Origin: Candidatus Woesebacteria bacterium
GTDB taxonomy: Bacteria > Patescibacteriota > Microgenomatia > UBA8517
NCBI GenBank assembly: GCA_963716475.1
Contig: OY970314.1
Coordinates: 436,790 to 500,789, forward strand
Length of the DNA: 64,000 bases
Direction: 5' to 3'
This document shows positions 25,953 through 58,385 of the stretch, piece after piece. The stretch's first letter is position 1. Every line of letters begins with the position of its first letter. Made by a program: the position numbers and the translations under genes. The notes below the pieces were generated by a model. The model was not told the DNA's origin, searched no databases, and was given only the letters and a program-made list of their open reading frames with translations.

Positions 25953-27215
25953 CTAAGGCAACAAATTTTTTATATTATCGATCAATTTACCAAATATTCC
26001 AACTGAGGGTAGTTTTATCTTTTTTGCAAAGCTTGTCAAGTTCTCATTCGGTACTTCCTTGGCCCCGTAAAGAAGGAGTCCGATTGATGTTGCAAACGAT
26101 GGCAACATTATGTCATCAACCAGCCCGCCAACCCCCGTCGGAACCCCAATCCTAACGGGAAGGGAAAGCATACGTTTAGCTGAATCGGTAACCCCTGCTG
26201 TTTCGGCTCCTCCTCCCGTAATCACAGCCCCTGAAGGAACCCTGTTGGCCACACCCTCTCTTTCCAATTCAATTCTAACCATTGTAAATATTTCATTTAA
26301 GCGTGGCCGGATTATTCCTTCCAAAAGTGTTTTTTTGGAAACTTTCTTGATTTCGGTAACACCCATTTTTTCCAAATCCATCTCATCGCCCTCGTCTTTA
26401 TCCTTTTGTTTCTTATCCGAAAGTGCAATCTTAATTTTTTCTGCAGTCTCAAGGGAAACTCTAAGTCCGATTGCCAAATCATTGGTAACATTCTTAGCAC
26501 CTACAGGAATAACACCCGAGTATGCCAATGCGCCGTCGATATATGCCGCTATGGATGTCGTTCCGCCGCCTACATCAATTAGCACGCACCCGAGTTCCTT
26601 CTCCGTGGGGGATAAAACGCTTTCTGCCGAGGCCAGCCCGGAAAAAACCAAATCGTCGATTTGAACACCAACCTCATTTACAGCCTTTCTTATATTTTTA
26701 ACTGCCGCCGAGGCTGCAGAAATAATATGCGTATCAACTTCCAGGCGGACGCCGCTCATTCCCACGGCATCCCGGACTCCTGCTTCTCCGTCAACAATAA
26801 ATTCCCTGGGAAGAATGTGAATGGCCTCCCGTGAAGCGGGCAGAGAAATTGCGGAAGCTGCTTCTACGGCTCTATCAATATCGTTCTGGTTTATTTCTCC
26901 GCTGGGATCCGAAACTGCAACGACTCCGTGGGAGTTCTGCGAATGAATATGGGCTCCTCCCAGGGCCACAAAAACACTCTCAAGGTTATATCCTGCCATC
27001 CTCTCGGCAGCCTCGACCGATGAAATCGTCGCCTCAACCGCCTCTTCAATATCAACGATCTGCCCCTTTTTAATTCCGCGGGATTCTGAGGTAGCCGCTC
27101 CCACAACATTTAAAGAGGTCTCGGAAGTTACGGGGTCTACCGCCACTTGGCTGACAAGCGTGGCAATTTTACTGGAACCTATGTCAATTGCGGCTATAAT
27201 TCTTGATTTACTCAT
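25953..27215 (-). CDS. ftsA: Cell division protein FtsA
   Basis: Actin-like ATPase motifs AAIDIGSSKI, DVGGGTT and VITGGGA. 420 aa. Directly upstream of ftsZ. Confidence 0.9.
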   Translation of the reverse strand: MSKSRIIAAIDIGSSKIATLVSQVAVDPVTSETSLNVVGAATSESRGIKKGQIVDIEEAVEATISSVEAAERMAGYNLESVFVALGGAHIHSQNSHGVVAVSDPSGEINQNDIDRAVEAASAISLPASREAIHILPREFIVDGEAGVRDAVGMSGVRLEVDTHIISAASAAVKNIRKAVNEVGVQIDDLVFSGLASAESVLSPTEKELGCVLIDVGGGTTSIAAYIDGALAYSGVIPVGAKNVTNDLAIGLRVSLETAEKIKIALSDKKQKDKDEGDEMDLEKMGVTEIKKVSKKTLLEGIIRPRLNEIFTMVRIELEREGVANRVPSGAVITGGGAETAGVTDSAKRMLSLPVRIGVPTGVGGLVDDIMLPSFATSIGLLLYGAKEVPNENLTSFAKKIKLPSVGIFGKLIDNIKNLLP

Positions 27216-27220
27216 CTTTG

Positions 27221-27889
27221 TTATCTTAATACCGGATTTGTGAAACGCAAGTCTATCTGCGAATACCCTGCAAGGTTACCATCTTCCATCACTTTTGAAT
27301 AGATCAACCTCAAAGAACCAAGCAAAACTTCGCTGTCTCCCTCTAATGGAAATATTACTCTGATTTGGCCTGGAAGTTCAACAAGCAAACTTCCGTCCTG
27401 AACCTGCGACTCCCTGACTTGATACATTTGGAAAATTCCGCCGGCTAAATTAAGTGCAAAAAGATTCGCCTGACTTATGTTTTGTCCTACGGCCGGTAAA
27501 CTTTCTCCCACAGCAATAGCCGGCAAAACAGAATCTTGTGCAGTCGAAAGGACACTCCCGTCTTTATCAACCAGAACCAGTGAACCTGTACCTGTGTCCT
27601 TAAACGCAACAACGGCTTTTTTTATCAAAAGCTCGACATGTAAAATATTCGGAATTTTATACTGAAGTGAATAATCGGAAACCAAAAACTCGGACTTAAG
27701 GATTTTGCGAACACCGTTTTTTGAAGAAAACAGACTTTTTCCGTTAAAAGAATTCAGCTTGTCCAAAACTTGCTTCGGACAATCACCATACTGGCTTTTG
27801 CAATCAATTCTTATTTTAATGAAAAACGGTGAGATAAATAAAAGAATTAAAACTAAAAATACACAAGAGATTGCAAAGATTTTTTTCAC
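27221..27889 (-). CDS. ftsQ: FtsQ/DivIB-like cell division protein (POTRA)
   Basis: 222 aa, single N-terminal TM. Sits between murG and ftsA. Sequence is weakly conserved. Confidence 0.55.
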   Translation of the reverse strand: MKKIFAISCVFLVLILLFISPFFIKIRIDCKSQYGDCPKQVLDKLNSFNGKSLFSSKNGVRKILKSEFLVSDYSLQYKIPNILHVELLIKKAVVAFKDTGTGSLVLVDKDGSVLSTAQDSVLPAIAVGESLPAVGQNISQANLFALNLAGGIFQMYQVRESQVQDGSLLVELPGQIRVIFPLEGDSEVLLGSLRLIYSKVMEDGNLAGYSQIDLRFTNPVLR

Positions 27890-29118
27890 TTCACGTACTT
27901 CCTTAATATTAGTAAAAGCTTTCCGGACGCCCCCCGGTCCGGACTATCTTTAGACCTGATTTTTTCAACAATCGCAGAATAATCTCCGATTAAATTCTCG
28001 ATGTATGCATACAGCAGTTCCGGTGTTAAAACTTCCTGTCGAATAATTTTGGCTACACCCCAGCCCACGGCAATCCTTGCATTTTTCATCTGTTCGTTCA
28101 TAAAGCTAACCGGGATAGGGATAAATATAGCCGGCCGCTTTATGGCCATAACTTCTGAAACGGTGTTTGCCCCGGCCCTGGCAATTACAAGATCACATTT
28201 TTGATAAATTTTATAAACTTCAAGGGGATTAACCCGGACAAAAACTTCGTAATTATCCCTAAGAGCCTGCGGCAACTTTTGTTTAATATCTGAGAATTTC
28301 AGATAATCCAAGCCGCCGGTTTGATGAATTACCTTATATTTTGATAGAAGTTTTTTTAGAATACTCTCCAATGCCTCATTAATTTTTTGAGACCCGCGTG
28401 ATCCGCCTGTTACAAATATTACCGGTGGCTCCCCGATCTTTGACTTAGCTTTAACCCTTGTAACTTCTTTCATAACAGGATTTCCCGTTAATTCACACTT
28501 GGCGTGTGGGTAATATTTTTCACTTTCGCTTCTGGAAACGGCAATCCTCGACGCAAATTTTGCCGTCATGAGATTGGCCCGACCGGCAACAGATGTTTGT
28601 TCGTGGATTACAACGGGAATCCCGAGAATGTATGCGTTTAAGACAACGGGAAAGGAAGCAAAGCCTCCAAATGAAAGTACTACGCGAGGTCTAATTTTCA
28701 GTAAATAATAAAAGGATTGGAGTATCCCCACAGGTATTTTTAATATTGACGGAATTGTCCAGATTGTAAAACGCCTTTGGATCCTGCCTGTCGTTAAAGG
28801 AAGAAATTTAACTCCAAGCCTGGGTAAAATCTCGGACTCCAAAGTCAGAACTTTTCTGCCCTCAATTGCATTTTTTACTCCGATCCAGGTTATATCCCAA
28901 TCCAGTCCCTCGGCTTTAATCTCCTGGATAACTGCAACAGCGGTTGTGGCGGCGTGTCCGCCGGTAAATACAACTTTACCGGGGCTCTGACCGGCCAAGC
29001 TTTGCTTACCGGGGCTCTGACCGGCCAAGCTAGGTTTATTTTCTTTGCTTCTTAATTGTTCCATAACTTGTTTCTGATATCGCAAATCTGGATATATTAA
29101 GAAGTATACCGCAAGCAA
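27886..29118 (-). CDS. murG: UDP-GlcNAc:lipid I N-acetylglucosaminyltransferase MurG; N-terminal extension with tandem SLAGQSPGK repeat; true start probably ATG at 29064 or later
   Basis: VVFTGGHAATTAVAVI G-loop. C-terminal GT-B half with GGSRGSQ. The called start overlaps the ftsW 3' end by 83 nt. Confidence 0.85.
   Translation of the reverse strand: MLAVYFLIYPDLRYQKQVMEQLRSKENKPSLAGQSPGKQSLAGQSPGKVVFTGGHAATTAVAVIQEIKAEGLDWDITWIGVKNAIEGRKVLTLESEILPRLGVKFLPLTTGRIQRRFTIWTIPSILKIPVGILQSFYYLLKIRPRVVLSFGGFASFPVVLNAYILGIPVVIHEQTSVAGRANLMTAKFASRIAVSRSESEKYYPHAKCELTGNPVMKEVTRVKAKSKIGEPPVIFVTGGSRGSQKINEALESILKKLLSKYKVIHQTGGLDYLKFSDIKQKLPQALRDNYEVFVRVNPLEVYKIYQKCDLVIARAGANTVSEVMAIKRPAIFIPIPVSFMNEQMKNARIAVGWGVAKIIRQEVLTPELLYAYIENLIGDYSAIVEKIRSKDSPDRGASGKLLLILRKYVK
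28976..29035. repeat. Two tandem copies of a 30-nt unit (TTACCGGGGCTCTGACCGGCCAAGCT + 4 nt)
   Basis: Read directly in the sequence. The period of 30 keeps the murG frame, encoding SLAGQSPGK(Q) twice. Confidence 0.8.
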
Positions 29119-30169
29119 CTAAGATCATCACCAAACTGCTACCACCGTAGGAAATAAAAGGTAACGGGATTCCCGTCAAGGGGACTAAAGCTACCATCGA
29201 AGCAATGTTCAAAAACGCCTGTCCCCCAATCCACACGGTTATACCGATTGCGAGATTCTTGGAAAAAGTATCCGGAGCGTTACGGGCGATCTTTAATGCC
29301 AGCATAATAAAATAGACAAAAAGCGCAATTATTACTACTCCGCCTACTAGACCTAACTCTTCGGCAATCACGGCAAAAATCGAATCCGTTGAGGCTTCCG
29401 GGAGAAACGAATATTTTTGGAGAGAAGCACCGAGTCCTACGCCAAATATTCCGCCCGAACCGAGCCCTAAAAGGATCTGCCTCATGTGATAAGAATTCCC
29501 CAAAGGGTCCTGAGAAATTTGCAAGAATGTGAGAAGTCTTTCCTTCCTGTATGATGACAGGAGAATTAAAGGAATCCCTGCCAAAAGTCCTAAGACTACT
29601 GCCCCCAAAAGATACCAAAGATTTACACCTGAAACAAAAATCTGAGATATGCCTATCATAGCAATTATTAAGGCTGTTCCTAGGTCCGGTTGAAGCATAA
29701 TCAGGATGAGAATAATCAGAAGCGGGAGAAAATAGGCGATGGCTCCCTTAGCTTTGGATGCTAATTTCGCAAAATAGACACAAATTGCAAACTTAATTAC
29801 CTCCGAAGGTTGAAAATTGACAGGACCTAAAAATATCCAGCGCCTGGCCCCGAGAGCCGAAAATCCCAGACGCGGCAAAAGAACAATCACCAGCAAAATT
29901 AATGAAACAAAAAAAATCGGTGTTGCCAGTTTCTCCCAAAAGGTATATTTAATTTTTGAACAGACGAAAAGCAAGATTAATCCCACACCCGCCCATTCCA
30001 GCTGTTGCTTAAAAAGAAAAAACTTGTCCCCAAAGTTATTTAGTGCCTGAGGAGCCGAAACATCAGCAACAGCGACCAGGCCAATAGCCACAAAAGAAAT
30101 TATCAAAAAGAATAACCTTTTATCAATCGATTGTTTTTGCCTTGAAAGTTTTGATTTACCGTTTCTCAC
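29036..30169 (-). CDS. ftsW: SEDS-family lipid II flippase/polymerase FtsW
   Basis: 377 aa. SEDS C-terminal block LPLTGIPLPFISYGGSSLV. Located between mraY and murG. Confidence 0.8.
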   Translation of the reverse strand: MRNGKSKLSRQKQSIDKRLFFLIISFVAIGLVAVADVSAPQALNNFGDKFFLFKQQLEWAGVGLILLFVCSKIKYTFWEKLATPIFFVSLILLVIVLLPRLGFSALGARRWIFLGPVNFQPSEVIKFAICVYFAKLASKAKGAIAYFLPLLIILILIMLQPDLGTALIIAMIGISQIFVSGVNLWYLLGAVVLGLLAGIPLILLSSYRKERLLTFLQISQDPLGNSYHMRQILLGLGSGGIFGVGLGASLQKYSFLPEASTDSIFAVIAEELGLVGGVVIIALFVYFIMLALKIARNAPDTFSKNLAIGITVWIGGQAFLNIASMVALVPLTGIPLPFISYGGSSLVMILVACGILLNISRFAISETSYGTIKKQRK

Positions 30170-30181
30170 GTCTACCCTTCG

Positions 30182-31231
30182 TTAAATTGTCGCCAACCAA
30201 AGACCAAAAATCGCCAGAAGAAGACCAAACATCCAAGCCCTCATTACAATCTTGGGCTCCTGCCATCCCTTTGCCAATAGCGTGTGGTGAATCGGTGCTA
30301 ATGGAAAAATTGGCCTTTTAAGATATTTCCAGCCAAACATTTGAATGGCCGATGTCGCTACCTCTATTACAAAAACCCCACCGATAACAACAAGGGCAAT
30401 AATTTTTCCGGTAACAAGTCCGATTACTCCGAGCATGGCTCCGAAGGATAACGCCCCGGCATCTCCCAGGAAAATTCTGGCCGGCCAAACATTAAAATAC
30501 AAGAATGCGATTAGTCCCCCAACCCATAAAGACATAAAAAGTGAAAGAGGAGTGTCAAGATTCCCGGTAGCAATTATTTCAAAGGCAATTAAACAAATTA
30601 TCAATAGTCCCGCAGCAAGACCATCCAATCCGTCCGTGATATTAAAAGCATTCGTAAAGGCAACTATGACAAAAGCAGCAAAAGGTACATACCAAATCCC
30701 CAAATTAAAAACAATATTGAAAATGGGGATATTTATTATTTGAATTCCCAAGTATCTGTAAATAAAAAAACCAATAAAAAGAGCAAGAATGCATTGCAAG
30801 GCGAATTTATGCTTACGACGAAGGCCAAACCATAAGCCAAGTACGCCTTTTGTCGGTTTACTGAAAATCTTTAGAAGGTCATCTGAAAGACCCAAAAGGC
30901 CAAAAGAAATGAATGTAAAAAATATAATAAATAATTCTGCCCTTAGGGAAAAGGAACTCGTAATGTACATACCGAGGTACTCTGAAAGTGGAAATATTAT
31001 GGCAAACAAAATAGAAATCAAGGTTATAAGCAAAACCCCGCCCCCTACCGGCGTACCGGTCTTAATGTCATGCAGTCTGTCAAAAAGAGGAATTTTTCCG
31101 GTTTTAGGAGCCTCGCGTTTCCTGATTAATTTTAGTTTGTATAGAAGATCGATAAAAGGAACTATTAAAACAAAGCACATCAAAAATGAAAAAATAATAA
31201 GTCCCAGAGCCAGAGGTAAAAAATTGGCCAT
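30182..31231 (-). CDS. mraY: Phospho-N-acetylmuramoyl-pentapeptide transferase
   Basis: 349 aa, 10 TM helices. Conserved NAFNITDGLDGLA and HH loop motifs. Confidence 0.9.
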   Translation of the reverse strand: MANFLPLALGLIIFSFLMCFVLIVPFIDLLYKLKLIRKREAPKTGKIPLFDRLHDIKTGTPVGGGVLLITLISILFAIIFPLSEYLGMYITSSFSLRAELFIIFFTFISFGLLGLSDDLLKIFSKPTKGVLGLWFGLRRKHKFALQCILALFIGFFIYRYLGIQIINIPIFNIVFNLGIWYVPFAAFVIVAFTNAFNITDGLDGLAAGLLIICLIAFEIIATGNLDTPLSLFMSLWVGGLIAFLYFNVWPARIFLGDAGALSFGAMLGVIGLVTGKIIALVVIGGVFVIEVATSAIQMFGWKYLKRPIFPLAPIHHTLLAKGWQEPKIVMRAWMFGLLLAIFGLWLATI

Positions 31232-31303
31232 ATATACTACCTTTCAGATTATAACAGCATTCATTATGCCTCACAATTAAATTTCGAGGCCGGAAAGCGA
31301 CAA

Positions 31304-32518
31304 TCAGATAAGCGAGTCCACCAGTTTGTCAAGATGGATTGAGCGTGAGCCTTTAACAAACAGGGCTGAGTCCTTATTTAAAAGCGGCTCGAGTATCGGG
31401 AGTACTTCAGATTCGTTTGTCGTTAAAAAACACTTATTCTGACCCATAAGTTTTCCGGCTTCTTCAGCTACAAACCTCGAGGCACTGCCTACGCCAATAA
31501 GATAATCAAAGTTCATCTTCCCGATCTTTTTACCAAGTTCTTTATGAGAAGATTCTTCAAATTGCCCAAGTTCCAGCATATCGCCGATTACCGCGATCTT
31601 TTTTCTCGAATGTGCAAGTTTATTAAAAGTATCAAGCGATTCGCTCGCTGCTTTGGGGTTACTGTTATATGAATCGTCAAAGATTATCCCATGATTTTTA
31701 CTTCTAATAATGTTAAGTCTGTGTTTTAAATGTTTAAATTTTTCAATGCCGGCTGAAATACTCTCCAGCCCCAAACCTAGAGAGGACGCTGCGGCAGCAG
31801 CAGCAAGAGCGTTAGTTACAAATTGCACACCAAACGCCTTCATATGCACATTACGATTAATCTTTCCGGTAACCAGAGTGAACGATGTGCTTAAATCCTT
31901 ATTCAGACTGATATCTTTCGCATAAATATCACTACCCCTGCCGTACCAGCACACCTTGGCTTTTGTCGACTTGGCAAAAGTTTTAACCACGGGGTCCTCA
32001 AAATTTAAAACGGCTATTCCGTTTTCTGATAATGATTTTGTAAGCTTGCTTTTCTCAGAAGATACCCCTCCAACGTTTTTTAAAAATTGAGTATGTGTAG
32101 TTGCAATATTTGTTACAATGGCGATATCGGGTTTTACCAGCCACAAATAGTAACCCATTTCATTCACAAATTCGACTGACATCTCGAGGATCAAATATTT
32201 TGTACCCCAGGAGGTCTTCAGTATGGTATTGGGAATGTTATACACCGGGTCGATATTTTCTTCAGACCAACAGGTTTTGGCTTGTGTGCTTAGAATTGAT
32301 CCCAAAATTTCTGTGGTAGTTGTTTTGCCTGTGCTACCGGTTATTCCGATAACTTTAATCTTTGTGTACTTTTGAAGAAGTTTTAGATAGCGTCGCGCCA
32401 GTCGCCTCTTGACAGGGTGAATTATCCACTGAGATATCAAATTATGTGAAGCAAAAATATCTTCCGGCGGAAGCTCAGGCGTTACCCACCAACGGATTAT
32501 CGGATTAATTTTCCTCAT
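31304..32518 (-). CDS. murF: UDP-MurNAc-tripeptide--D-alanyl-D-alanine ligase
   Basis: Mur ligase P-loop IGITGSTGKTTT. 404 aa. Operon position before mraY. Confidence 0.75.
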   Translation of the reverse strand: MRKINPIIRWWVTPELPPEDIFASHNLISQWIIHPVKRRLARRYLKLLQKYTKIKVIGITGSTGKTTTTEILGSILSTQAKTCWSEENIDPVYNIPNTILKTSWGTKYLILEMSVEFVNEMGYYLWLVKPDIAIVTNIATTHTQFLKNVGGVSSEKSKLTKSLSENGIAVLNFEDPVVKTFAKSTKAKVCWYGRGSDIYAKDISLNKDLSTSFTLVTGKINRNVHMKAFGVQFVTNALAAAAAASSLGLGLESISAGIEKFKHLKHRLNIIRSKNHGIIFDDSYNSNPKAASESLDTFNKLAHSRKKIAVIGDMLELGQFEESSHKELGKKIGKMNFDYLIGVGSASRFVAEEAGKLMGQNKCFLTTNESEVLPILEPLLNKDSALFVKGSRSIHLDKLVDSLI

Positions 32519-33660
32519 TTAATAATTCTGGGTAAAAGTGGGTTTATCCTCGAAACCACTTCATAGTTTATTGTACCAATTTTCTTAGCCCATTCATCAG
32601 CAGAAACCTTTAAACCGTCTTTATTCCCCAATAAGGCAACTTCATCTTCCAGTTTAACTTTTTTAATATCAGTGACATCAATCATAATCATGTTCATTGC
32701 CACCCTGCCGACTACATTTGCATAATGACCGTTAATTATCACCCTGCCGATATTTGAAAGCCTCCTGTCGTATCCGTCTGAGTAGCCAACGGGTATAACT
32801 GCAATCTTTGTTTTTCTTGATGCGAACCATGTCTGGCCGTAACTGACCGACTCACCTACATCAATATACTTAATTTGGGCAACTATACTTTTCCAGGTCA
32901 GAACAGGTTTTAGTACCAAATTTCTTTTAAGAGCCAGAAGGGATACTCTCGTTTCAAGAGACATCCACCATCCGTATATACCAAATCCCACTCTTACCAT
33001 CGAAAAATGTGTTTCCGGATAAAGCAGAGTTCCTGCTGAGGCTGCAGTATGGATCAGGGGTGGGTGGAAACCCGCCTTTTTAACTGCTTTTAATGCCTTC
33101 GTAAATTCTGCAAGTTGCTTTCTGGCGAATGACGGATCCAGCGTATCTTCGATGTTTGCGTAGTGGGTATAAACGCCTTCCAGATAAAAAGCTTTCGGGT
33201 GGGCTTTAATAAATTTAAGAAAAACGGACAAGTCTTTTTCTTGAATACCCTGCCTGTTTAATCCTGTTTCAATCTTCAGATGAATTTTTGCTGGTTTATT
33301 CTGTTTTAGCGAGACAATTTTTCTCAATGTTTCAATGTTATAGACAACAAATGAAATGTTATTCTCAATAGTGGTTAAGACATTTGCCAGTGTCGTATAT
33401 CCGAGAATTAACACAGGCGTGGCGCCGTCAATTTCACGAATAATTAAGGCTTCATCAATATTATCAACGGCAAACACATCAACTCCATTCTTTAGGATAG
33501 GAATAATTTTCCTAAGGTCGTGTCCGTAAGCGTTAGCTTTTACGACAGCGGCTAACTTTACATTCTTGCCGATTCTTTTTCGGAAAACGGCTACATTATG
33601 AAGCAATGCGCCTTTCGAGACTTCAACCCAGCTCTTGTAAATATTGTTATTTAATTGCAT
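32515..33660 (-). CDS. alr: Alanine racemase
   Basis: PLP-Lys motif AAVVKANAYGHD. 381 aa. Confidence 0.85.
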   Translation of the reverse strand: MQLNNNIYKSWVEVSKGALLHNVAVFRKRIGKNVKLAAVVKANAYGHDLRKIIPILKNGVDVFAVDNIDEALIIREIDGATPVLILGYTTLANVLTTIENNISFVVYNIETLRKIVSLKQNKPAKIHLKIETGLNRQGIQEKDLSVFLKFIKAHPKAFYLEGVYTHYANIEDTLDPSFARKQLAEFTKALKAVKKAGFHPPLIHTAASAGTLLYPETHFSMVRVGFGIYGWWMSLETRVSLLALKRNLVLKPVLTWKSIVAQIKYIDVGESVSYGQTWFASRKTKIAVIPVGYSDGYDRRLSNIGRVIINGHYANVVGRVAMNMIMIDVTDIKKVKLEDEVALLGNKDGLKVSADEWAKKIGTINYEVVSRINPLLPRIIK

Positions 33661-34675
33661 ATCCGATAATTAGGTCTATTAGTTTTGGATAGGAAATTCC
33701 GGCGGCTTTTGCTTCCTTCGGCAATAACGATAGCTTTGTGAGTCCGGGTATTGTGTTAATTTCCAGAATGTACAATTTATTCTTTTTCAAAATAAAGTCA
33801 ACTCTGGCAAAACCCTTCGCACCTATAGCTCTAAATACTTCGATCGACAGTTTTTTTATCGCGTTCTCGTTCTTCTTAGAAATTCTCGCAGGAATAATCT
33901 CTTCGGACCCGCTTTCGCTATATTTGGATTCATAATCAAAAAACTCTCCTTTTGGAACAATTTCGATAGGGGGCAGAGCAATTAATTTGTCATTTCCCAG
34001 TACTCCGCACGTCAACTCAGTTCCTTCAATATACTCATCTATCAATACTTTATCCGAATATTTAAAAGCCTCTTTAACTGCACTCAAAAGTTGGATCTTA
34101 TTTCCGGCAATAGCGGCACCGACGGAAGATCCCTGATCATTTGGTTTAACAAAATAGGGAAAATTCCCGATCCTGCTCACAAGTTTTAAAATGTTTCTGT
34201 CCCTCCTGGTTACCACAATATATTTAGGAATGGCTAGATCGGCTTCTTTCATTAACTTTCGAAAAGTCTCTTTATCCATTCCGATAGCAGAAGCTAAAAC
34301 TCCGGAACCCGTATAGGGAATCCCCGTCAGTTCCAGCATCCCCTGAATTGTCCCGTCCTCGCCAAACGGCCCGTGCATGGCAATAAAAATAACGCTTGGC
34401 CCAATCCCCGATAGAGTTCCGACCCCTGGGATTAATTTTTCTTCGGAAAGAATAATCTCACGATTTGTCCCTTTCAATTTCAGAGGATTGACTAATTTTA
34501 GGAGTGAGTCCTTTGTGGTAAGTTTCCACTTCACTCCTGTTTTGGAAACAACGACAGGAAGTACTTTATATTTTCTGGAGTCCAAACTTGCAACTACATT
34601 TGTCCCGGAAAGAATCGAAACCTCATGCTCGGGTGACCTGCCACCCATCAAAACTATTACATTGGTTTTATTCAT
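33647..34675 (-). CDS. ddl: D-alanine--D-alanine ligase
   Basis: N-terminus VIVLMGGRSPEHEVSILSG and an ATP-grasp C-terminal domain. 342 aa. Confidence 0.85.
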   Translation of the reverse strand: MNKTNVIVLMGGRSPEHEVSILSGTNVVASLDSRKYKVLPVVVSKTGVKWKLTTKDSLLKLVNPLKLKGTNREIILSEEKLIPGVGTLSGIGPSVIFIAMHGPFGEDGTIQGMLELTGIPYTGSGVLASAIGMDKETFRKLMKEADLAIPKYIVVTRRDRNILKLVSRIGNFPYFVKPNDQGSSVGAAIAGNKIQLLSAVKEAFKYSDKVLIDEYIEGTELTCGVLGNDKLIALPPIEIVPKGEFFDYESKYSESGSEEIIPARISKKNENAIKKLSIEVFRAIGAKGFARVDFILKKNKLYILEINTIPGLTKLSLLPKEAKAAGISYPKLIDLIIGYAIK

Positions 34676-35547
34676 TCCAACTTTAGGACAGCTTCTTTAA
34701 ATTGCGCCCCTCTATCTTTATAATTTTTAAACATGTCAAAACTGGCCGATGCGGGAGAGAGAATTACCACTCCCCCTTTCGGACAAACTCTGTATGCCTC
34801 TTCGACTATCCGGTCCATGGAGGTCTTTCCGAGGTTGACAATGTTCTTGCCTTTAATACCGGATCCGATTTTCTCTCCGGTATTCCCTATCAACAGCAAA
34901 TTCTTAACATTATCCCTTTCCTCCAATTCATCCCTCAACTGCCCATAATCTAGCCCTTTGTCACTTCCCCCAAGAATCACGGTCTCCGGTTCGGTAAAGG
35001 ATTTAATTGCAGCAATAGTCGGCTGTGGCCCGGTGGCAAAGGAGTCATTATAAAAAGTAACGCCGTTAACCGTTCCTACCAGTTCGAGCCTGTGTTCAAG
35101 ACCCTTGAAAGATCTAACCGTTTTCAAAACAATGTCCTCTTTCACTCCGACAATTTTGGCAACGGCTACCGCAGCCGCAATATTCTCAAGATTATGTTCT
35201 CCGCGAAGTAATAAATTTTGCTTATATTTTCCCTCCAGACAGGCTTTTGAGAAATAGATGATCTTGCCTTTTGTAATCTTCGCAAAATTTTTAGGTGTTT
35301 CATATTCTTCATTTAATATCGCAAAATCGTCGGGGTTCTGGTGACTCACGATATTCTTCTTGGACTCGACATACTCCTCTTTATTTTTGTGCCAATCCAT
35401 ATGATCAAGGGTAATATTTAAAACTACCGCGATACTGGGGCTTTTAGTCATATCAATTAGTTGGAAAGAAGATAACTCCATGACGACCAGGCTATCTTTT
35501 TTCAGTTTCGGCAGAAGTTCTAAATAAGGCTTACCGATATTGCCCAC
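34672..35547 (-). CDS. murD: MurD (UDP-MurNAc-L-Ala--D-Glu ligase) C-terminal portion. Its frame is open up to 35706 and encodes the P-loop upstream of the called GTG start. It is disconnected from the MurD N-domain by a frameshift.
   Basis: The same frame, read upstream, gives GKIIGITGTKGKGTASTL (P-loop) and EKAGVEITSSLKIFF. These align to the MurD central domain. Confidence 0.75.
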   Translation of the reverse strand: MGNIGKPYLELLPKLKKDSLVVMELSSFQLIDMTKSPSIAVVLNITLDHMDWHKNKEEYVESKKNIVSHQNPDDFAILNEEYETPKNFAKITKGKIIYFSKACLEGKYKQNLLLRGEHNLENIAAAVAVAKIVGVKEDIVLKTVRSFKGLEHRLELVGTVNGVTFYNDSFATGPQPTIAAIKSFTEPETVILGGSDKGLDYGQLRDELEERDNVKNLLLIGNTGEKIGSGIKGKNIVNLGKTSMDRIVEEAYRVCPKGGVVILSPASASFDMFKNYKDRGAQFKEAVLKLE

Positions 35548-35683
35548 TAAATAAACATCCTTCCCCGCATTTTTGAGAATTTCATAAACCAGTGTAGAGG
35601 CGGTTCCTTTGCCCTTTGTTCCGGTTATGCCTATTATTTTTCCCGGACACTTATCAAAAAATATTTTTAAGGAGGATGTTATC

Positions 35684-38155
35684 TCAACTCCTGCTTTTTC
35701 CGGCTTTTACAATTTCCGAAAGGTATCTGTAAACTCCGGGGGAACGGACAATGATATCGTAGTCGTTTAAATTTTTGAGATAGCTTTTGTCATACTTTCT
35801 ATCGAGAATAGTAACTTCGTCCCCAAGATCCTTGAAATACTTCTCGGCATCCTGCCCCTCAAGACCGTAGCCAAGAATAGCTATCTTTTTCCCGGATCCG
35901 ATAAATTGGACTTCCGGTTCTAATTTAACTCCAAATTTCTTTTCTACGTCCTGAATTATCATTCTTGAGAGTCCGGCGATATCGGAATAACCGGCCTTAC
36001 CGGATTTGTTTATTAAAATAAGTGAATTTTTGGAAGACACGGCCGCACCCTTATATGTCTTACCTTTCCATCCCGCTTTTTCTATTAACCAACCTGCATA
36101 TAATTTGAATTTATTTCCAAAAGGAAAACTCGGTATCCCGGGAATTTCGGCTTCTACGATAGGATTTTTAAAGAAAGATCCTGCATTGCCGACTTCATTT
36201 GGGTCCTCCAATTTTTCCTGCCTTAAAGTCAGAACCGCATTTCTTATTTGTTCCAGGGAAGGTTTTTTTATATTTTGTTTATTAAGAATGTTTAAGAGAG
36301 ATTCATACTTAACTACCGGGTGTTTATTCCTATTCAATTTAAAAGTTACTGATGTAATCAGATATTTCTGCCAATTTTCCGGCTTTCTGAAAAAACTTTC
36401 TCTATATCCGAATTTACAATCGGCATTTGAAAAGTCTTTAAATTTCCCGGTTTCAAACTCGTAAGCCCTTACATTAAACAATGTGTCTTTGACTTCCTGT
36501 CCGTATGCACCGATGTTTTGAACAGGAGAAGCTCCGACTGTACCCGGAATACCGGACATGCATTCGATACCTTGATATTCATATTTAGCTGCATACTCGA
36601 CCAAATCGTCCCATTTCATTCCTGCTTGAGCTGTTATTTTGACATCTTTTACCTCATTAAGGGCCTCTTCCAGAGTACGGCCGCTGCCTGTAAATTTAAT
36701 CACAACACCGTTAAATTCCTTATCCGAAACTAAAATATCTGTCCCATCCCCTAATACGAAAATCGGTAAATTATTATCCTTTGCGTATTTAGTAGCCATA
36801 TCTATTTCTTTCCTGGTTTTAACTTCAAAATATTTTTTAATTTTTCCGCCGATTCTGAAAGAAGTCATCTCCGAAAACTTCGGTTCAATAATTTTTGCAA
36901 TTTTCCTGGCCCACAAGTAGCTTTTTCCTGCACCCATCACCAAAACTACATCGCCGGGTTTTAAATATTCATTTAAATATAAAAACATTTTACCGGCATC
37001 ACCGAAACAAATTGTGTCTTTATGATTGGATGCTTTAGCTATTGAATTCTCACTGATACCAAAATGCTCGGTATCCCTGGCTTCGAATATCGGGCCGATT
37101 ATAACTTTATCTGCCGAATCAAAAACCCCATTATAATTTGGAAGGAGTGCTTTGGTTCTGGAATATGAATGGGCTTCGTAGATTGCCCAAATTCTTTTAT
37201 CTTTATAGTTCTCTCTTAATGAATCGACTGTCGCTTTAATTGCCGTAGGATGATGGGCATAATCATCGTAAACTCCAATTCCGTTTCTTTCCGAAATTAA
37301 TTCCATTCGTCTGCCTACGCCGGGAAACTCCTCAAGCGATTTGGTAATTACACCTTCATTGATTTTTAAATACCTGCCTAATGCAATCACCCCTAGGGCG
37401 TTTGCAAGATTATGTTTTCCCATAATCTTAAGGTGCAGGTCCAAATTTTTATCTTTTAGTGAATATTTGATTATTTTTAAACCTGAAGTATCAATTTCCC
37501 CCAGCAATTTTTGCACACCGGGAGAGTCGGCGTTTACAATCAACACTTTTTCCCCCACCAAATTCCCGATAAACTTTTTGTAGCTATCAAAGATTTGTTT
37601 TTCCGATTTAAAATAATCCGGATGATCAAACTCTACATTATTCAAAATAATTATCTCCGGATGATAATTTAAAAAATTATCGTAAAACTCATCCGCTTCG
37701 GTTACAAAATATTTTCCTCTCCCAAACCTAGCTCCGCCCTGCCACTCCTTATAATTTGCACCTAGGTTAACCAGAGGGTCCAGTCCCGCGTCGGTTAGAA
37801 GTTTCCCGGCCATTGCTGTGGTGGTTGACTTACCATGAGTCCCTACAACACAAATTACTTTCTTTCCATTATGTAAATACTTACCCAAAAACTCCTGCCA
37901 GGTAATTGATATTCTCCTTTTTTCTCCCACGACCAGCTCGGGATCTTTGAATTTTTGAAAATAAACGGCCGGAGTTACCACCAGCAAATCAATATTTTTG
38001 AGGTGATCCGGTGAATGGCCATGAAAGAATTTATCTGAATACGCAGTACTTTCTTCAAGATCACATCCTGTTACGTTATACCCCATCTTTGAAGAAAGAA
38101 ATGCAATACCGGACATTCCGCTTCCCCCAATTCCCATCAGGTGAATATTTTTCAT
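35684..38155 (-). CDS. murC: Fusion protein: MurC (UDP-MurNAc--L-Ala ligase), MurB (UDP-GlcNAc-enolpyruvate reductase) and the N-terminal Rossmann domain of MurD, all in one frame
   Basis: MurC has MGIGGSGMSGIA and VVGTHGKSTTT. MurB has FRIGGKIKKY FAD-binding and NAGSFFKNP. The last roughly 70 aa, GKKIAILGYGLEGQD...IIVRSPGV, match the MurD N-domain. No stop or start separates the domains. Confidence 0.85.
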   Translation of the reverse strand: MKNIHLMGIGGSGMSGIAFLSSKMGYNVTGCDLEESTAYSDKFFHGHSPDHLKNIDLLVVTPAVYFQKFKDPELVVGEKRRISITWQEFLGKYLHNGKKVICVVGTHGKSTTTAMAGKLLTDAGLDPLVNLGANYKEWQGGARFGRGKYFVTEADEFYDNFLNYHPEIIILNNVEFDHPDYFKSEKQIFDSYKKFIGNLVGEKVLIVNADSPGVQKLLGEIDTSGLKIIKYSLKDKNLDLHLKIMGKHNLANALGVIALGRYLKINEGVITKSLEEFPGVGRRMELISERNGIGVYDDYAHHPTAIKATVDSLRENYKDKRIWAIYEAHSYSRTKALLPNYNGVFDSADKVIIGPIFEARDTEHFGISENSIAKASNHKDTICFGDAGKMFLYLNEYLKPGDVVLVMGAGKSYLWARKIAKIIEPKFSEMTSFRIGGKIKKYFEVKTRKEIDMATKYAKDNNLPIFVLGDGTDILVSDKEFNGVVIKFTGSGRTLEEALNEVKDVKITAQAGMKWDDLVEYAAKYEYQGIECMSGIPGTVGASPVQNIGAYGQEVKDTLFNVRAYEFETGKFKDFSNADCKFGYRESFFRKPENWQKYLITSVTFKLNRNKHPVVKYESLLNILNKQNIKKPSLEQIRNAVLTLRQEKLEDPNEVGNAGSFFKNPIVEAEIPGIPSFPFGNKFKLYAGWLIEKAGWKGKTYKGAAVSSKNSLILINKSGKAGYSDIAGLSRMIIQDVEKKFGVKLEPEVQFIGSGKKIAILGYGLEGQDAEKYFKDLGDEVTILDRKYDKSYLKNLNDYDIIVRSPGVYRYLSEIVKAGKSRS
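35689..35708. repeat. 10-nt near-perfect tandem duplication (minus strand AAAAGCCGGA / AAAAGCAGGA) at the murD frameshift point
   Basis: Read directly in the sequence. Removing either copy joins the murC-murB-murD' frame to the 'murD frame. Confidence 0.7.
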
Positions 38156-39693
38156 CGCTCAATTCTTAGAACTCTTCCCTTAAAGGCTTCTCTGGCAGCT
38201 TCTTCATCGGACCAAGGATATTCCTTTAGGCCATAGGCCATACTTCTTTCGTGACCTTTACCGCAAATCACGACAGTATCTCCCGGCTTTGCCAGTTTCC
38301 TGATTGCATAATAAACAGCCTCCCCGCGCTCGGGAATCTTCAGAAAATACTTAGACTTTTCATTATCAATTTTTAAATTCTTGGAAATTTCAACCGCTCC
38401 CTGGGACCTGGCACCTGATGCGATTCTATTAATGATTGCGGTGACTTTTTCACTCCTCGGATCCTCTGCAGTAATAACGGATATATCGGAAATTTTTCCT
38501 GAAATTTTTCCCATTTCCCTCCTCTTACTTTTGTCTCTTTCCCCGGCACAACCAAAAACCGAAATAAGCCTGCCCTGAGTAACTTTCCTGAGATAAGTCA
38601 AAACATTTAAAAGAGCGTTTGGCGTATGCGCAAAGTCGATAAAGACCTTAAAACTCTGACCTAAACTCACTTCCTGCAATCTCCCTGCCGGGGAATCAAA
38701 TGACCGGATTGCTTTAACTACCCGTTGAACCGGAATATCGTATATTTCAGCCACACTTATGGCCGCCATCATATTTGAAACGTTGTATTTGCCGTGAAGG
38801 TTACTGACAATTTTTGCGGGGTGTCCTTCATAATAGATATTAAATTCAAGTCCTTTTTGTGTATCTTCAATTTCCCTTGCCCTGGCGTCTACGTTACCTT
38901 TCAAACTATAAAAAAATACTTTCGTTTTTCGCGGTAACAACTTTTGTATCACTTTCCACGATTTATCATCTTTATTCAGCACTACCGTATTTTTGGCTAA
39001 CTTCAAAAAAGAAATTTTTACTTTTCTATAATTATCAAAATTCTTATGATAATCGAGGTGGTCGTGCGTAATATTGGTCAGGGCTGCCGTATCAAAATCT
39101 ACCCCGGCTATCCTTTGCTGATCAATACCGTGTGAGGTTACTTCAATAACTGCGTATTCGCAACCGGACTCAACCATTTTAGCCAAAAACGCCTGAAGTG
39201 AAACCGGGTCGGGATTTGTAACATGTAAACCTGTATCGAATTCCTTTTTCCCTACTTTGGCAAGAATTGTAGAAACTAAACCGACTTTCATACCGGCTGT
39301 AGCCAAAATGTGATAGATAAGATGACATGTTGTTGTCTTTCCGTCGGTTCCCGTTACTCCTATTATCTTTAGCTTCCTTGAGGGATACCCAAACCATGCA
39401 GCGGCCAGAACTCCCAAAACCTTCCTTGTATCGGCAACAACAATATATGTGGCATCGTTTGTATTTTCCGGTACTTTCTCACAGACAACCACGCTTGCGC
39501 CACTTTTTACCGCCTGCTTAATAAAATTATGACCGTCAAAATTTATACCCCTTACGGCAACGAAAATATAATCCTTTCCTACCTGCCTCGAGTCAGCGGT
39601 AATACCACGGGTAGAAGTATCGGAGCTTCCAAATAACTCAAATTTACCTATGTCTTTCAGTAAACTCCCGATCTTTTTCTTCATAGCCTCCAC
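38152..39693 (-). CDS. murE: UDP-MurNAc-L-Ala-D-Glu--diamino acid ligase
   Basis: P-loop IIGVTGTDGKTTT. Diamino-acid specificity region TAEDPRSE is DNPR-like. 513 aa. ATGA overlap with murC. Confidence 0.85.
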   Translation of the reverse strand: MEAMKKKIGSLLKDIGKFELFGSSDTSTRGITADSRQVGKDYIFVAVRGINFDGHNFIKQAVKSGASVVVCEKVPENTNDATYIVVADTRKVLGVLAAAWFGYPSRKLKIIGVTGTDGKTTTCHLIYHILATAGMKVGLVSTILAKVGKKEFDTGLHVTNPDPVSLQAFLAKMVESGCEYAVIEVTSHGIDQQRIAGVDFDTAALTNITHDHLDYHKNFDNYRKVKISFLKLAKNTVVLNKDDKSWKVIQKLLPRKTKVFFYSLKGNVDARAREIEDTQKGLEFNIYYEGHPAKIVSNLHGKYNVSNMMAAISVAEIYDIPVQRVVKAIRSFDSPAGRLQEVSLGQSFKVFIDFAHTPNALLNVLTYLRKVTQGRLISVFGCAGERDKSKRREMGKISGKISDISVITAEDPRSEKVTAIINRIASGARSQGAVEISKNLKIDNEKSKYFLKIPERGEAVYYAIRKLAKPGDTVVICGKGHERSMAYGLKEYPWSDEEAAREAFKGRVLRIER

Positions 39694-39779
39694 GCACGCC
39701 CCCTATTATACTAAATTCCCCGAACAAAGGCTTTCCCACAGGGTGAATTAGCACCTCCGTTAAGATATAATACGCCTGT

Positions 39780-40925
39780 ATGATCCTATATGAATTCGAA
39801 GGTAAGAAGATTCTCGCAGAAAATGGAATCAGCGTACCCCGCTCGATATTGGCCACATCACCCCAACAATTGGTAACTCTTCAATTTCCGGTAATACTCA
39901 AGGCTCAGGTACTTTCCGGAAAAAGAATGGAAGCCGGAGGAATAATCGAGGTCAAGAATAAAAAAGGTCTTAAAAAATCACTGTCTGACCTTTTTTCCAA
40001 AAACATAAACGGGGAACAGGTGAAAGCAGTTCTTATTGAGGAGAAATTACACTTCAGCAGTGAATATTATCTCTCGATATCTTACAATTCCGATTTACGT
40101 TCACCCGTGATCACCTTTTCAGAAAAAGGCGGTACCGGTATTGAAAAAAGGGGTGCTAAAATTATAAAAGTGGATCCTATTACTGGGGATTTTAACAAAA
40201 AGGAGTTTCCGGAAATAGTTTCAAAAGTTTTACCGCAAATCTTAAAAATCTTTTTTGAGAATGATTGCCTTCTTACGGAGATAAATCCGCTTATTGTTTC
40301 CGAGGGACTTTTAACGGCCCTTGACGCAAAAGTCAGTCTTGACGATTGTGCTTTGGAACGTCATAAGGAAAGAGTCTTTCCGGGAAGATCCGTTCCGGGA
40401 CACGTAGCCAGCAAAAACGAAGTCGAGGCAAAAAAAATTGACGAAAACGATTACCGGGGTACGGCCGGTTCTACTTATTTTGACTTAGACGGCGACATTG
40501 CGGTTCTGGCTTCAGGCGGAGGGGCATCATTAACCGCAATGGATGCTTTGCTGGCCGCCGGCGGAAAACCCGCAAACTATACCGAATACTCGGGGAACCC
40601 TCCCAAAGAAAAGGTTGAAAAATTGACAAAAATTGTACTTTCAAAAAAGGGGCTGCATGGCCTTTGGGTGGTTGGGGCAATAGCAAATTTTACCGATATT
40701 TACGAAACATTATCTGGGCTTGTCGAGGCTTTAAGAAATCTTACTCCCAAACCCGTTTTTCCAATTGTCATCAGGCGCGGCGGCCCGAATGATGAAAAGG
40801 CCTTTGAGATGCTCAAAAAAGTCAAGGATTTTGAACTTCATCTCTACGGTCAGGAAACTTCCATTACGGAGTCTGCTGAAATTATTGCCAACCTGGCAAA
40901 AAAATATGTTACTACTACCAAATAA
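39780..40925 (+). CDS. Succinyl-CoA synthetase beta-subunit-like ATP-grasp protein (SucC/AclB/CcsA family)
   Basis: ATP-grasp N-terminus ILYEFEGKKILAENGISVP. C-terminal CoA-ligase block AVLASGGGASLTAMDAL...GGKPANY. 381 aa. Confidence 0.75.
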   Translation: MILYEFEGKKILAENGISVPRSILATSPQQLVTLQFPVILKAQVLSGKRMEAGGIIEVKNKKGLKKSLSDLFSKNINGEQVKAVLIEEKLHFSSEYYLSISYNSDLRSPVITFSEKGGTGIEKRGAKIIKVDPITGDFNKKEFPEIVSKVLPQILKIFFENDCLLTEINPLIVSEGLLTALDAKVSLDDCALERHKERVFPGRSVPGHVASKNEVEAKKIDENDYRGTAGSTYFDLDGDIAVLASGGGASLTAMDALLAAGGKPANYTEYSGNPPKEKVEKLTKIVLSKKGLHGLWVVGAIANFTDIYETLSGLVEALRNLTPKPVFPIVIRRGGPNDEKAFEMLKKVKDFELHLYGQETSITESAEIIANLAKKYVTTTK

Positions 40926-41802: not shown

Positions 41803-42467
41803 TGGCAATAACAATAAAACATATTGATGGTATTCCCTATTTCGGAAAAGAAAACCTTTTGGAAATTGCCCCAAATATCAATTTCTCCGAAATGATTTTT
41901 GAACTTTTAAGTACTAAAAGACCAAATGAAGCCGAGTCGAAAATTTTCGAAACTATACTCAATCTTTCGATTGATCATGGAGAAGAAACTCCTTCTGCAA
42001 TTAAAACTATCGGGGCAGCAAAGGGAGGAAAAACCATTTCCGAGTCGGTCTCCGCAGGAATTTTACAAATAAACGACATGCACGGCGGGGCAATCGAACC
42101 GGCGATGAATCTTTTTTATAAAATAAAAAACGAAAAATTAGATATCAAAAAGGTTGTTGATGATTATCTGGATAATGACAGAAGAATGCCTGGATTCGGA
42201 CATAGAATTTACGATATTGATCCGAGAGCTCAGCTTATTTTTAAATTGGCAAGACAGCAGAATATTTCAGATGAATTTATTGAAATTGCACAAAGTTTGG
42301 AAAAGAGCCTTAAAAGTGCCAAGGGCAAACCCATTCCCGTTAACATCGACGGAGCCATCGCTTCGATTCTTTGCACCTTCGGCTGGAATTCTAATCTTGG
42401 CAATGCGGTCTTCATTATTGCCAGGATTCCGGGCCTTTGCGGTCAATTTTTGAATAACTCAAAATGA
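41802..42467 (+). CDS. Short citrate-synthase-like protein (citryl-CoA lyase / ACL C-terminal domain-like)
   Basis: The GFGHRIYD box matches the citrate-synthase catalytic His motif GFGHRVY. 221 aa, far shorter than citrate synthase. TAATG overlap with the sucD-like gene. Confidence 0.55.
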   Translation: MAITIKHIDGIPYFGKENLLEIAPNINFSEMIFELLSTKRPNEAESKIFETILNLSIDHGEETPSAIKTIGAAKGGKTISESVSAGILQINDMHGGAIEPAMNLFYKIKNEKLDIKKVVDDYLDNDRRMPGFGHRIYDIDPRAQLIFKLARQQNISDEFIEIAQSLEKSLKSAKGKPIPVNIDGAIASILCTFGWNSNLGNAVFIIARIPGLCGQFLNNSK

Positions 42468-44453: not shown

Positions 44454-44468
44454 AGCTTAATTTAATCA

Positions 44469-58381: not shown

Positions 58382-58385
58382 TCTT

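What the first reader, a model, noticed from the sequence alone, without database searches (positions are those of the whole stretch)
34672..38155. MurC-MurB-MurD tri-domain fusion whose murD portion is split by a 10-nt near-duplication
MurC, MurB and the Rossmann N-domain of MurD are encoded in a single uninterrupted frame (35684-38155). The frame stops at 35684. The +1 frame that opens at 35706 continues seamlessly into the MurD P-loop (IIGITGTKGKGT) and the rest of MurD, down to 34672. The switch point coincides with the minus-strand duplication AAAAGCCGGA/AAAAGCAGGA at 35689-35708. Deleting either copy gives one 1157-codon ORF. MurC-MurB fusions are known, but a triple fusion with MurD would be very unusual. 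The break may be a sequencing or assembly error at an A-rich duplication, a recent inactivating mutation, or a site that needs frameshifting.
Basis: seen in the sequence. Interest (0 to 1): 0.7.

Follow-up and report, generated by a model that had tools for sequence, protein, structure and literature searches.

The report
Frameshifted three-enzyme cell-wall fusion gene
This is a real, lineage-specific gene that joins three consecutive cell-wall precursor enzymes (MurC, MurB, MurD) into one protein; in this assembly it is broken by one extra base, not by a 10-base duplication, and the break is most likely a sequence error or a very recent mutation.

Summary

(1) The MurC-MurB-MurD fusion is real. 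The conceptual product passes the curated murC, murB and murD models. At least 15 intact proteins of 1131-1171 aa (64-77% identical, Woesebacteria/Patescibacteria) share the architecture and gene order. The window nests inside that clade.

(2) The break is one extra base, not a 10-nt duplication. The window is 1 nt longer than its closest ortholog (GCCGGAAAAAGC against GCCGAAAAAGG). Removing one G (35700/35701) gives a 1160-aa ORF reading KAEKAGVEITS. This restores an invariant Glu and the fixed 45-residue spacing seen at 26 related loci. Removing 10 nt would delete three conserved residues. The "repeat" is simply the codons for K-A-E and K-A-G, and occurs at chance frequency.

(3) The out-of-frame part shows no decay, and no programmed-frameshift signature is present or conserved.

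Whether the base is a consensus error (my preference, about 0.55) or a real recent mutation (about 0.35) cannot be decided without reads. The three-enzyme fusion is absent from the literature I searched but is already in databases. Interest is modest.

The parts
36899..38155 (-). [quoted passage not shown] The ATG at 38155-38153 overlaps the murE stop by 4 nt.
   Evidence: TIGR01082 murC scores 433.7 bits against a cutoff of 335.1, over residues 3-419. The model matches solved MurC chains with TM(target) about 0.8.
35885..36877 (-). MurB module (UDP-N-acetylenolpyruvoylglucosamine reductase), aa 427-757. It follows MurC after a short linker.
   Evidence: NF000755 scores 309.2 bits against a cutoff of 277, over residues 427-757. 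Pfam FAD_binding_4 and MurB_C also match. The linker 424-438 has pLDDT <50. The model matches solved MurB with TM(target) 0.81.
35702..35884 (-). First 61 residues of the MurD N-terminal (UDP-binding, Rossmann-like) domain, aa 758-818, still in the frame of MurC-MurB.
   Evidence: MurB ends ...EPEVQFIG and MurD starts KKIAILGYG with no stop codon between them. The T. maritima MurD 4BUC aligns from query residue 12, which is fusion residue about 749.
35695..35703 (-). Tract CCGGAAAAA that holds the one extra base. The most parsimonious candidate is one of the two G at 35700/35701.
   Evidence: The window reads GCCGGAAAAAGCAGGAGTT (19 nt). The closest ortholog reads GCCGAAAAAGGCGGAGTT (18 nt). 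Removing one G restores KAEKAG and the invariant E819.
35684..35701 (-). Out-of-frame tail GGA AAA AGC AGG AGT TGA (G-K-S-R-S-stop) that ends the 823-aa ORF.
35689..35708 (-). It is the codons for K-A-(E)/K-A-G plus the inserted base, not a duplication event.
34672..35700 (-). Remainder of MurD (aa 819-1160 of the repaired protein) in the +1 frame: the end of the N-domain, the central ATP-binding domain (P-loop GITGTKGKGT at 35631-35602) and the C-terminal domain. The stop overlaps the ddl start.
   Evidence: TIGR01087 murD scores 416.9 bits against a cutoff of 211.95, over residues 772-1154 of the 1157-aa conceptual product (10-nt deletion) scanned. This part is 73.0% identical to orthologs, against 72.9% for orthologs compared with each other, and keeps 143 of 145 ortholog-invariant columns. 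The first ATG/GTG/TTG in this frame is GTG 35547, after the P-loop.
38152..39693 (-). murE, the intact upstream neighbour in the cell-wall/division (dcw) cluster.
   Evidence: Pfam Mur_ligase, Mur_ligase_M and Mur_ligase_C match at full length.
25953..34675 (-). Intact downstream cell-wall/division genes: ddl (33647-34675), alr (32515-33660), murF (31304-32518), mraY (30182-31231), ftsW (29036-30169), murG (27886-29118), a 222-aa ORF with no Pfam hit (27221-27889), and ftsA (25953-27215).
   Evidence: All named genes have full-length Pfam matches. The gene order is the same as at the ortholog locus L001.

Best explanation
The locus is a trifunctional murC-murB-murD gene. One polypeptide of 1160 aa carries three consecutive cytoplasmic steps of peptidoglycan precursor synthesis: MurB makes UDP-MurNAc, MurC adds L-Ala, MurD adds D-Glu. 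The domain order is C-B-D, joined by very short linkers. This fusion is ancestral to a subclade of Woesebacteria (Patescibacteria), in which murC, murB and murD are adjacent and have fused in several combinations.

In this assembly the gene carries one extra base in the tract GCC-G[G]-AAAAA (35700/35701). The base shifts the frame inside the last helix of the MurD N-domain.

The 10-nt 'duplication' is an illusion. It comes from the codons for Lys-Ala-Glu and Lys-Ala-Gly plus the inserted base.

My preferred reading is that the extra base is a consensus or base-calling error, or an allele that is not fixed, and that the organism makes the intact 1160-aa enzyme.

Shown: the fusion, its conservation, the 1-nt nature of the lesion, and the lack of decay. 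Inferred: that the base is artefactual.
For: The fusion is real.
- The murC, murB and murD equivalog models all score above their cutoffs on the conceptual product.
- The three modules match complete solved MurC, MurB and MurD structures.
- 15 intact proteins of 1131-1171 aa are 64-77% identical to the repaired protein and cover 99-100% of the conceptual query.
- The synteny murE|CBD|ddl|alr|murF|mraY|ftsW|murG is the same.
- The window nests in the tri-fusion clade, next to P0001.

The lesion is 1 nt.
- The window is 19 nt where the closest ortholog is 18 nt.
- All 15 tri-fusion orthologs read KAE[KEGN]xGV.
- The spacing from SPG to the P-loop GK is 45 aa at 26 related loci. The 1-nt repair also gives 45; the 10-nt repair gives 42.
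- The repaired junction aligns without gaps to solved MurD 3LK7.
- E819 is invariant and is restored by the repair.

There is no decay.
- The post-shift part is 73.0% identical to orthologs, against 72.9% among orthologs.
- It keeps 143 of 145 invariant columns.

The pathway is still needed: every other dcw gene in the cluster is intact.

One consistent but weak point: other ENA contigs also carry MurD genes cut by frame breaks (P0242 and P0243).
Against: - The rest of the 64-kb window shows no other frameshift signature.
- 178 homopolymers of >=6 nt and 445 of 5 nt lie inside intact ORFs. The assembly is therefore not prone to indel errors.
- The extra base is not in a long homopolymer (G1->G2, next to an A5 run).
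- A second dataset (Logan run ERR12035932) holds the same organism with 3 SNPs in 7.5 kb, so real population variation exists. Its contigs do not cover position 35700.
- No reads and no same-species intact allele could be found.
Confidence: 0.55

Rival explanations
1. The extra base is a real and very recent mutation, fixed or dominant in this population. The cell then makes an 823-aa MurC-MurB protein carrying a dead-end stub of the MurD N-domain. MurD activity is then lost, supplied by another murD copy outside the window, or supplied at a low level by spontaneous +1 slippage of tRNA-Lys on GGA-AAA-A. That slippage would give ...KAGKAGVEITS....
For: - The assembly otherwise looks accurate at 623 homopolymer runs within ORFs.
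- The lesion duplicates an adjacent base, which is typical of replication errors.
- Population variation exists.
- A run of five A spans the shift window, so a +1 slip from AAA to AAA is sterically possible and would restore the frame (read directly from the sequence).
Against: - MurD is required for a pathway whose other genes are all intact here.
- The downstream 342 codons show no second lesion and no relaxed conservation.
- None of the 15 orthologs has the lesion.
- The downstream frame has no ATG/GTG/TTG before the P-loop, so it cannot be expressed on its own.
- The break falls inside the N-domain, in helix 812-820, with strand 824-826 and helix 828-835 still to come. It is not at a domain boundary.
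Confidence: 0.35
2. This is an evolved, programmed +1 ribosomal frameshift (prfB-like) that sets the ratio of MurC-MurB to the full MurC-MurB-MurD protein.
For: An A-AAA-A motif and an AGGAG (Shine-Dalgarno-like) sequence lie within the 20-nt window where a +1 shift would restore the frame, and a 0-frame stop follows within 4 codons.
Against: - It is not conserved: all 15 orthologs are in frame.
- The in-frame motif A-AAA-A occurs 156 times in the genes of this window.
- The next 0-frame codon AGC, and AGG, are common codons.
- The AGGAG lies 3' of the A-run, not 5' of it as in prfB. It is simply the codons for G-V-E, and GGAG is present in the ortholog too.
- There is no stable local RNA structure (z = 0.20).
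Confidence: 0.04
3. A 10-nt tandem duplication, created the frameshift. The ancestral gene was the 1157-codon ORF.
For: Two adjacent 10-mers match at 9 of 10 positions, and deleting either one restores an ORF.
Against: - The window is 1 nt, not 10 nt, longer than the ortholog.
- The 1157-aa version lacks three residues, including the invariant Glu, that are present in every relative.
- It would also introduce a 3-residue gap against solved MurD.
- Such adjacent near-identical 10-mers occur at chance frequency.
Confidence: 0.02

Closest known systems
MurB/C (MurC-MurB) fusion enzyme of Verrucomicrobium spinosum (Naqvi et al. 2016, PMC4803751)
   Same: MurC is N-terminal and MurB is C-terminal in one polypeptide. 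[quoted passage not shown]
   Different: The V. spinosum protein is 770 aa, has a linker of about 100 residues and has no MurD. Here the MurC-MurB linker is only about 5-15 residues, a complete MurD is appended, and the lineage is Patescibacteria rather than Verrucomicrobia.
Pairwise Mur chimeras surveyed by Shirakawa et al. 2023 (PMC10214165): MurE-MurF, MurC-Ddl, MurC-MurB, MurG-MurC, MurD-FtsW
   Same: These are fusions of neighbouring dcw-cluster genes, some without a linker. They are interpreted as support for a cytoplasmic Mur multi-enzyme complex.
   Different: That survey reports pairs only and excluded proteins from unidentified species. It lists neither MurB-MurD nor any three-enzyme chimera. 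Here three consecutive pathway steps sit in one chain.
Intact MurC-MurB-MurD proteins in public databases (P0001-P0003, P0005-P0016; e.g. MCX6704465.1, Candidatus Woesebacteria)
   Same: Same architecture, same junction sequences and same gene neighbourhood. They are 64-77% identical to the repaired protein.
   Different: They are uninterrupted ORFs. The window copy has one extra base.
Programmed +1 frameshift of prfB (RF2)
   Same: Restoring the frame needs a +1 shift close to an in-frame stop codon.
   Different: There is no conservation, no upstream SD-like stimulator at the right spacing, and no slow codon or stop in the A-site at the slippery codon.

Membership tests
MurC-MurB-MurD tri-fusion family (Woesebacteria clade) | Complete MurC module | tested here: met
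   TIGR01082 scores 433.7 bits against a cutoff of 335.1, over residues 3-419.
MurC-MurB-MurD tri-fusion family (Woesebacteria clade) | Complete MurB module directly after MurC | tested here: met
   NF000755 scores 309.2 bits against a cutoff of 277, over residues 427-757.
MurC-MurB-MurD tri-fusion family (Woesebacteria clade) | Complete MurD module, including the N-domain, directly after MurB with no stop codon | tested here: met
   On the 1157-aa conceptual product, TIGR01087 scores 416.9 bits against a cutoff of 211.95. No stop lies between ...EVQFIG and KKIAILGYG.
MurC-MurB-MurD tri-fusion family (Woesebacteria clade) | One uninterrupted ORF of about 1130-1170 codons | tested here: not met
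   As given, the sequence has an 823-aa ORF followed by a +1-frame continuation. The feature is met only after removing one base.
MurC-MurB-MurD tri-fusion family (Woesebacteria clade) | Shared gene neighbourhood and phylogenetic nesting among tri-fusions | tested here: met
   The order murE|CBD|ddl|alr|murF|mraY|ftsW|murG is the same as at L001. In a rough NJ tree the window is sister to P0001/L003 within the tri-fusion clade.
   The excess is 1 nt. The spacing is 45 aa at 26 loci; the 10-nt repair gives 42 and the 1-nt repair gives 45.
   2 loci in the window against 1.4 +/- 0.8 in shuffles.
Programmed +1 ribosomal frameshift (prfB type) | The shift site is conserved in orthologs | tested here: not met
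   All 15 orthologs, and 26 related loci, are in frame.
Programmed +1 ribosomal frameshift (prfB type) | A slippery P-site codon with a slow or stop codon in the A-site, and an SD-like stimulator just upstream | tested here: not met
   A-AAA-A is present but is followed by the common codon AGC (164 of 19,327 codons). AGGAG lies downstream of the A-run. The motif occurs 156 times in the window's genes.
Programmed +1 ribosomal frameshift (prfB type) | Measured frameshift product | not testable with these tools
   This needs a reporter assay or proteomics.
V. spinosum-type MurB/C fusion | MurC N-terminal and MurB C-terminal in one chain | tested here: met
V. spinosum-type MurB/C fusion | Linker of about 100 residues; two enzymes only | tested here: not met
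   The linker is about 5-15 residues, and a third enzyme (MurD) is appended.

The most novel reading that the evidence does not exclude
The extra G is real and fixed, and this Woesebacteria population keeps its wall synthesis going by low-level +1 slippage on GGA-AAA-A. That would set a low MurD to MurC-MurB ratio from a single gene. Separately, and independent of the frameshift: the intact 1160-aa MurC-MurB-MurD chain is a natural single-polypeptide 'Mur metabolon' covering three consecutive steps. No such protein is in the Mur chimera literature I searched.
Probability: 0.06. Interest if true: 0.55.

Novelty: new variant of a known kind. Interest (0 to 1): 0.3.

Why it matters
The frame break is of local importance only. 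Annotators should treat 34672-38155 as one murC-murB-murD gene with a single-base frameshift, and should not 'repair' it by removing 10 nt.

The architecture is of some wider interest. Published work on Mur chimeras describes only pairs, and uses them to argue for a cytoplasmic Mur complex and for substrate hand-over. A conserved, almost linker-less chain carrying MurB, MurC and MurD covers three successive reactions. Its relatives include MurC-MurB, MurB-MurD and even MurE-NTP-transferase-MurC-MurB fusions in the same lineage. These proteins would be a ready-made natural system for testing channelling, and for structural work on how Mur enzymes pack together. The mix of architectures also shows how easily adjacent dcw genes fuse and split in small Patescibacteria genomes.

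Tried and rejected
- An exact-pattern scan for the junction, allowing 1-3 bases at the lesion, found nothing in GTDB species genomes or JGI metagenomes.
- Look-ups for the window's own 823-aa and 291-aa products, Ddl, Alr and a guessed contig-edge fragment found no record.
- MurE and MurF look-ups found the same organism in Logan run ERR12035932. Those contigs stop at window 37153 and restart at 33407, so they miss the site.
- Exact look-up showed that contig-edge (cut) products are not in the protein collection. Homology searches therefore cannot reveal a fragmentary intact allele.
- The third homolog search, using the 103 aa upstream of the junction, was insensitive. It gave 7 candidates, did not recover the window's own protein, and added only two unrelated truncated MurDs.
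- The accession ERR12035932 is not mentioned in the searchable literature.
- Re-initiation was rejected. The TTG overlapping the TGA is in the wrong frame and stops after 2 codons. ATA, 5 nt after AGGAG, is a non-canonical start, and the same GGAG...ATA is present in the in-frame ortholog.
- UGA recoding was rejected, because the 0-frame meets two further stop codons within about 10 codons.
- The AlphaFold2 model (pLDDT 77.5, pTM 0.43) supports the three folds but not any particular arrangement between the enzymes.
Full report
**What is in the sequence.** On the minus strand an ORF runs from ATG 38155 to TGA 35686-35684 (823 aa). The +1 frame opens at 35706 and continues to the stop at 34672. 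It reads KPEKAGVEITSSLKIFFDKCPGKIIGITGTKGKGT... The adjacent 10-mers AAAAGCCGGA/AAAAGCAGGA lie at 35708-35689, and removing either one gives a 1157-aa ORF.

**Is it a MurC-MurB-MurD fusion?** Yes.
- On the conceptual product the curated NCBIfam equivalog models all exceed their cutoffs:
  - murC: 433.7 bits (cutoff 335.1), residues 3-419.
  - murB NF000755: 309.2 bits (cutoff 277), residues 427-757.
  - murD TIGR01087: 416.9 bits (cutoff 211.95), residues 772-1154.
- Pfam finds two sets of Mur-ligase domains flanking FAD_binding_4 and MurB_C.
- The MurD part, including its N-domain, aligns to solved MurD structures. 4BUC covers query 12-418, and 3LK7 aligns across the junction without a gap.
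- An AlphaFold2 model of the repaired protein has pLDDT 77.5 and pTM 0.43. Its three modules superpose on complete solved MurC, MurB and MurD, with TM(target) of about 0.8, 0.81 and 0.72-0.76. No solved chain covers more than one module.

**Is the fusion real or an accident of this assembly?** It is real.
- A search of 5.8 billion proteins returned 15 intact proteins of 1131-1171 aa covering 99-100% of the conceptual query. They are 64-77% identical to the repaired protein.
- They come from NCBI, JGI, ENA and Logan assemblies of Woesebacteria/Patescibacteria. Some are annotated by JGI with all three activities.
- The window's own 823-aa ORF is in the database as P0004, from a 982,852-bp contig.
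- The closest ortholog locus (L001) has the same gene order: murE, fusion, ddl, alr, murF, mraY, ftsW, murG. The window's neighbours are all intact, with full-length Pfam matches.
- Among species-representative genomes the same three adjacent genes occur in four arrangements:

| Arrangement | Examples |
|---|---|
| C, B, D separate | most loci (23) |
| CB + D | L009, L011, L012, L013, L015, L017-L020, L049 |
| C + BD | L006, L007, L026, L036, L051 |
| CBD | L001/L003 |

- In unfused relatives MurB ends ...EVQLINF* and MurD starts 10-25 codons later.
- A rough neighbour-joining tree of the concatenated modules places the window inside a clade that is almost entirely tri-fusions, sister to P0001.
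- A search of 1.84 billion 50%-identity representatives listed no full-length C-B-D protein among its best 150, so no independent tri-fusion cluster showed up outside this clade.

**What broke the frame?** One base, not a 10-nt duplication.
- Every tri-fusion ortholog reads ...PEI[VI]KAE[KEGN]xGV[EK][IV]... at this point. That is three residues more than the 10-nt-deletion model allows.
- At the DNA level the closest ortholog has GCC GAA AAA GGC GGA GTT (18 nt). The window has GCCGGAAAAAGCAGGAGTT (19 nt).
- Removing one G (35700/35701) gives a 1160-aa ORF reading SEIVKAEKAGVEITSS.
- This restores a Glu that is invariant across the alignment.
- It also restores the 45-residue spacing between the SPG motif and the P-loop Lys that is constant at 26 related loci. 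The 10-nt repair gives 42.
- Removing a C of GCC gives the same peptide. Removing an A gives KAGKAG and loses the invariant Glu. The extra base therefore lies in CCGGAAAAA, most parsimoniously the second G.
- The 'near-duplication' is the codon pattern AAA-GCC-GAA / AAA-GCA-GGA (K-A-E / K-A-G) with the inserted base.
- Adjacent 10-mers differing by at most one base occur twice in the window, against 1.4 +/- 0.8 in shuffles.

**Has the out-of-frame part decayed?** No.
- Residues 819-1160 are 73.0% identical to the orthologs. The orthologs are 72.9% identical to each other over the same columns.
- 143 of 145 ortholog-invariant columns are kept.
- The frameshift is therefore artefactual, very recent, or compensated.

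**Could the two pieces work as they stand?** This is unlikely.
- The downstream frame has no ATG/GTG/TTG before the P-loop. The first is GTG 35547, which gives the 291-aa P0166 lacking the P-loop.
- In the model the break lies in helix 812-820 of the MurD N-domain. A strand (824-826) and a helix (828-835) of that region still follow, so the break is not at a domain boundary.

**Programmed frameshifting?** This is unlikely.
- A +1 slip of tRNA-Lys on GGA-AAA-A would restore the frame.
- The site is not conserved in any ortholog.
- The in-frame motif A-AAA-A occurs 156 times in this window's genes.
- The following codons AGC and AGG are common.
- The AGGAG lies downstream of the A-run and is simply the G-V-E codons, as GGAG is in the ortholog.
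- There is no local RNA structure (z = 0.20).

**Error or real mutation?** This is unresolved.
- *For an error:* the gene is essential, it sits in an otherwise intact pathway, it shows no decay, and the lesion is unique to this assembly.
- *Against a simple homopolymer error:* the window has no other frameshift signature. 178 runs of >=6 nt and 445 runs of 5 nt sit inside intact ORFs.
- *Independent data:* one dataset was found. Logan contigs from run ERR12035932 match window 37153-44693 (3 SNPs) and 27371-33407 (identical), but leave 33408-37152 uncovered.
- *Limit of the searches:* contig-edge products are not in the protein collection. The absence of an intact same-species allele from the homology searches is therefore uninformative.
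- *My weights:* error or non-fixed allele 0.55, real recent mutation 0.35, programmed recoding 0.04, and 10-nt duplication 0.02.

**Comparison with what is known.**
- The V. spinosum MurB/C enzyme has MurC at the N-terminus and MurB at the C-terminus, a linker of about 100 residues and 770 aa. It complements murB and murC mutants (PMC4803751).
- The 2023 survey of Mur chimeras lists only pairs (MurE-MurF, MurC-Ddl, MurC-MurB, MurG-MurC, MurD-FtsW) and excluded unidentified species (PMC10214165).
- Full-text searches for MurC-MurB-MurD or MurB-MurD returned nothing relevant.
- The three-enzyme chain is therefore a new variant of a known kind. It is already present in sequence databases but not, as far as I could search, described.
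- The frame break itself is ordinary.

Noticed in passing
window 39780-42467 (+): A three-gene cluster that resembles a split ATP-citrate lyase or citryl-CoA synthetase/lyase: ATP-grasp_2 + Citrate_bind (39780-40925), CoA_binding + Ligase_CoA (40885-41802), and the C-terminal half of the citrate-synthase fold (41802-42467). This is unexpected in a ~1-Mb Patescibacteria genome.
   Followed up: partly
window 49806-50029 (-): A glmS ribozyme (Rfam RF00234, 42 bits against a gathering score of 37) lies directly upstream of glmS (47998-49773).
   Followed up: partly
P0022 / L010 2280-6848 (JACOZU010000032.1, Candidatus Woesebacteria): A 1464-aa protein joins MurE, an NTP-transferase (GlmU-N-like), MurC and MurB in one chain. 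It is a four-module fusion in the same lineage.
   Followed up: partly
L006, L007, L026, L036, L051; P0122 and many others: MurB-MurD di-fusions of about 700-850 aa are common in Woesebacteria/Microgenomates. This pairing is not listed in the published survey of Mur chimeras.
   Followed up: partly
window 27886-29118 (-): The longest murG ORF overlaps ftsW by 83 nt. Its N-terminal extension contains the tandem peptide PSLAGQSPGK/QSLAGQSPGK. The true start is probably an internal Met.
   Followed up: no
L083 (window 37153-44693) and L084 (window 27371-33407): Logan contigs from run ERR12035932 carry the same organism. L083 differs at 3 positions in 7541 nt and L084 is identical. The assembly is broken exactly over the 3.7 kb that holds the rest of murCBD, ddl and the start of alr.
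   Followed up: yes
P0242, P0243 (ENA contigs of 2995 and 1418 nt): Two other Patescibacteria MurD ORFs end out of frame near the P-loop (P0243 within it, P0242 about 20 residues after it). Frame breaks in murD are therefore not rare in metagenome assemblies.
   Followed up: no
window 58385-58408: A short tandem array of TATAG/TAGTA units lies in an intergenic gap. It was the only other hit of the adjacent-10-mer scan.
   Followed up: no
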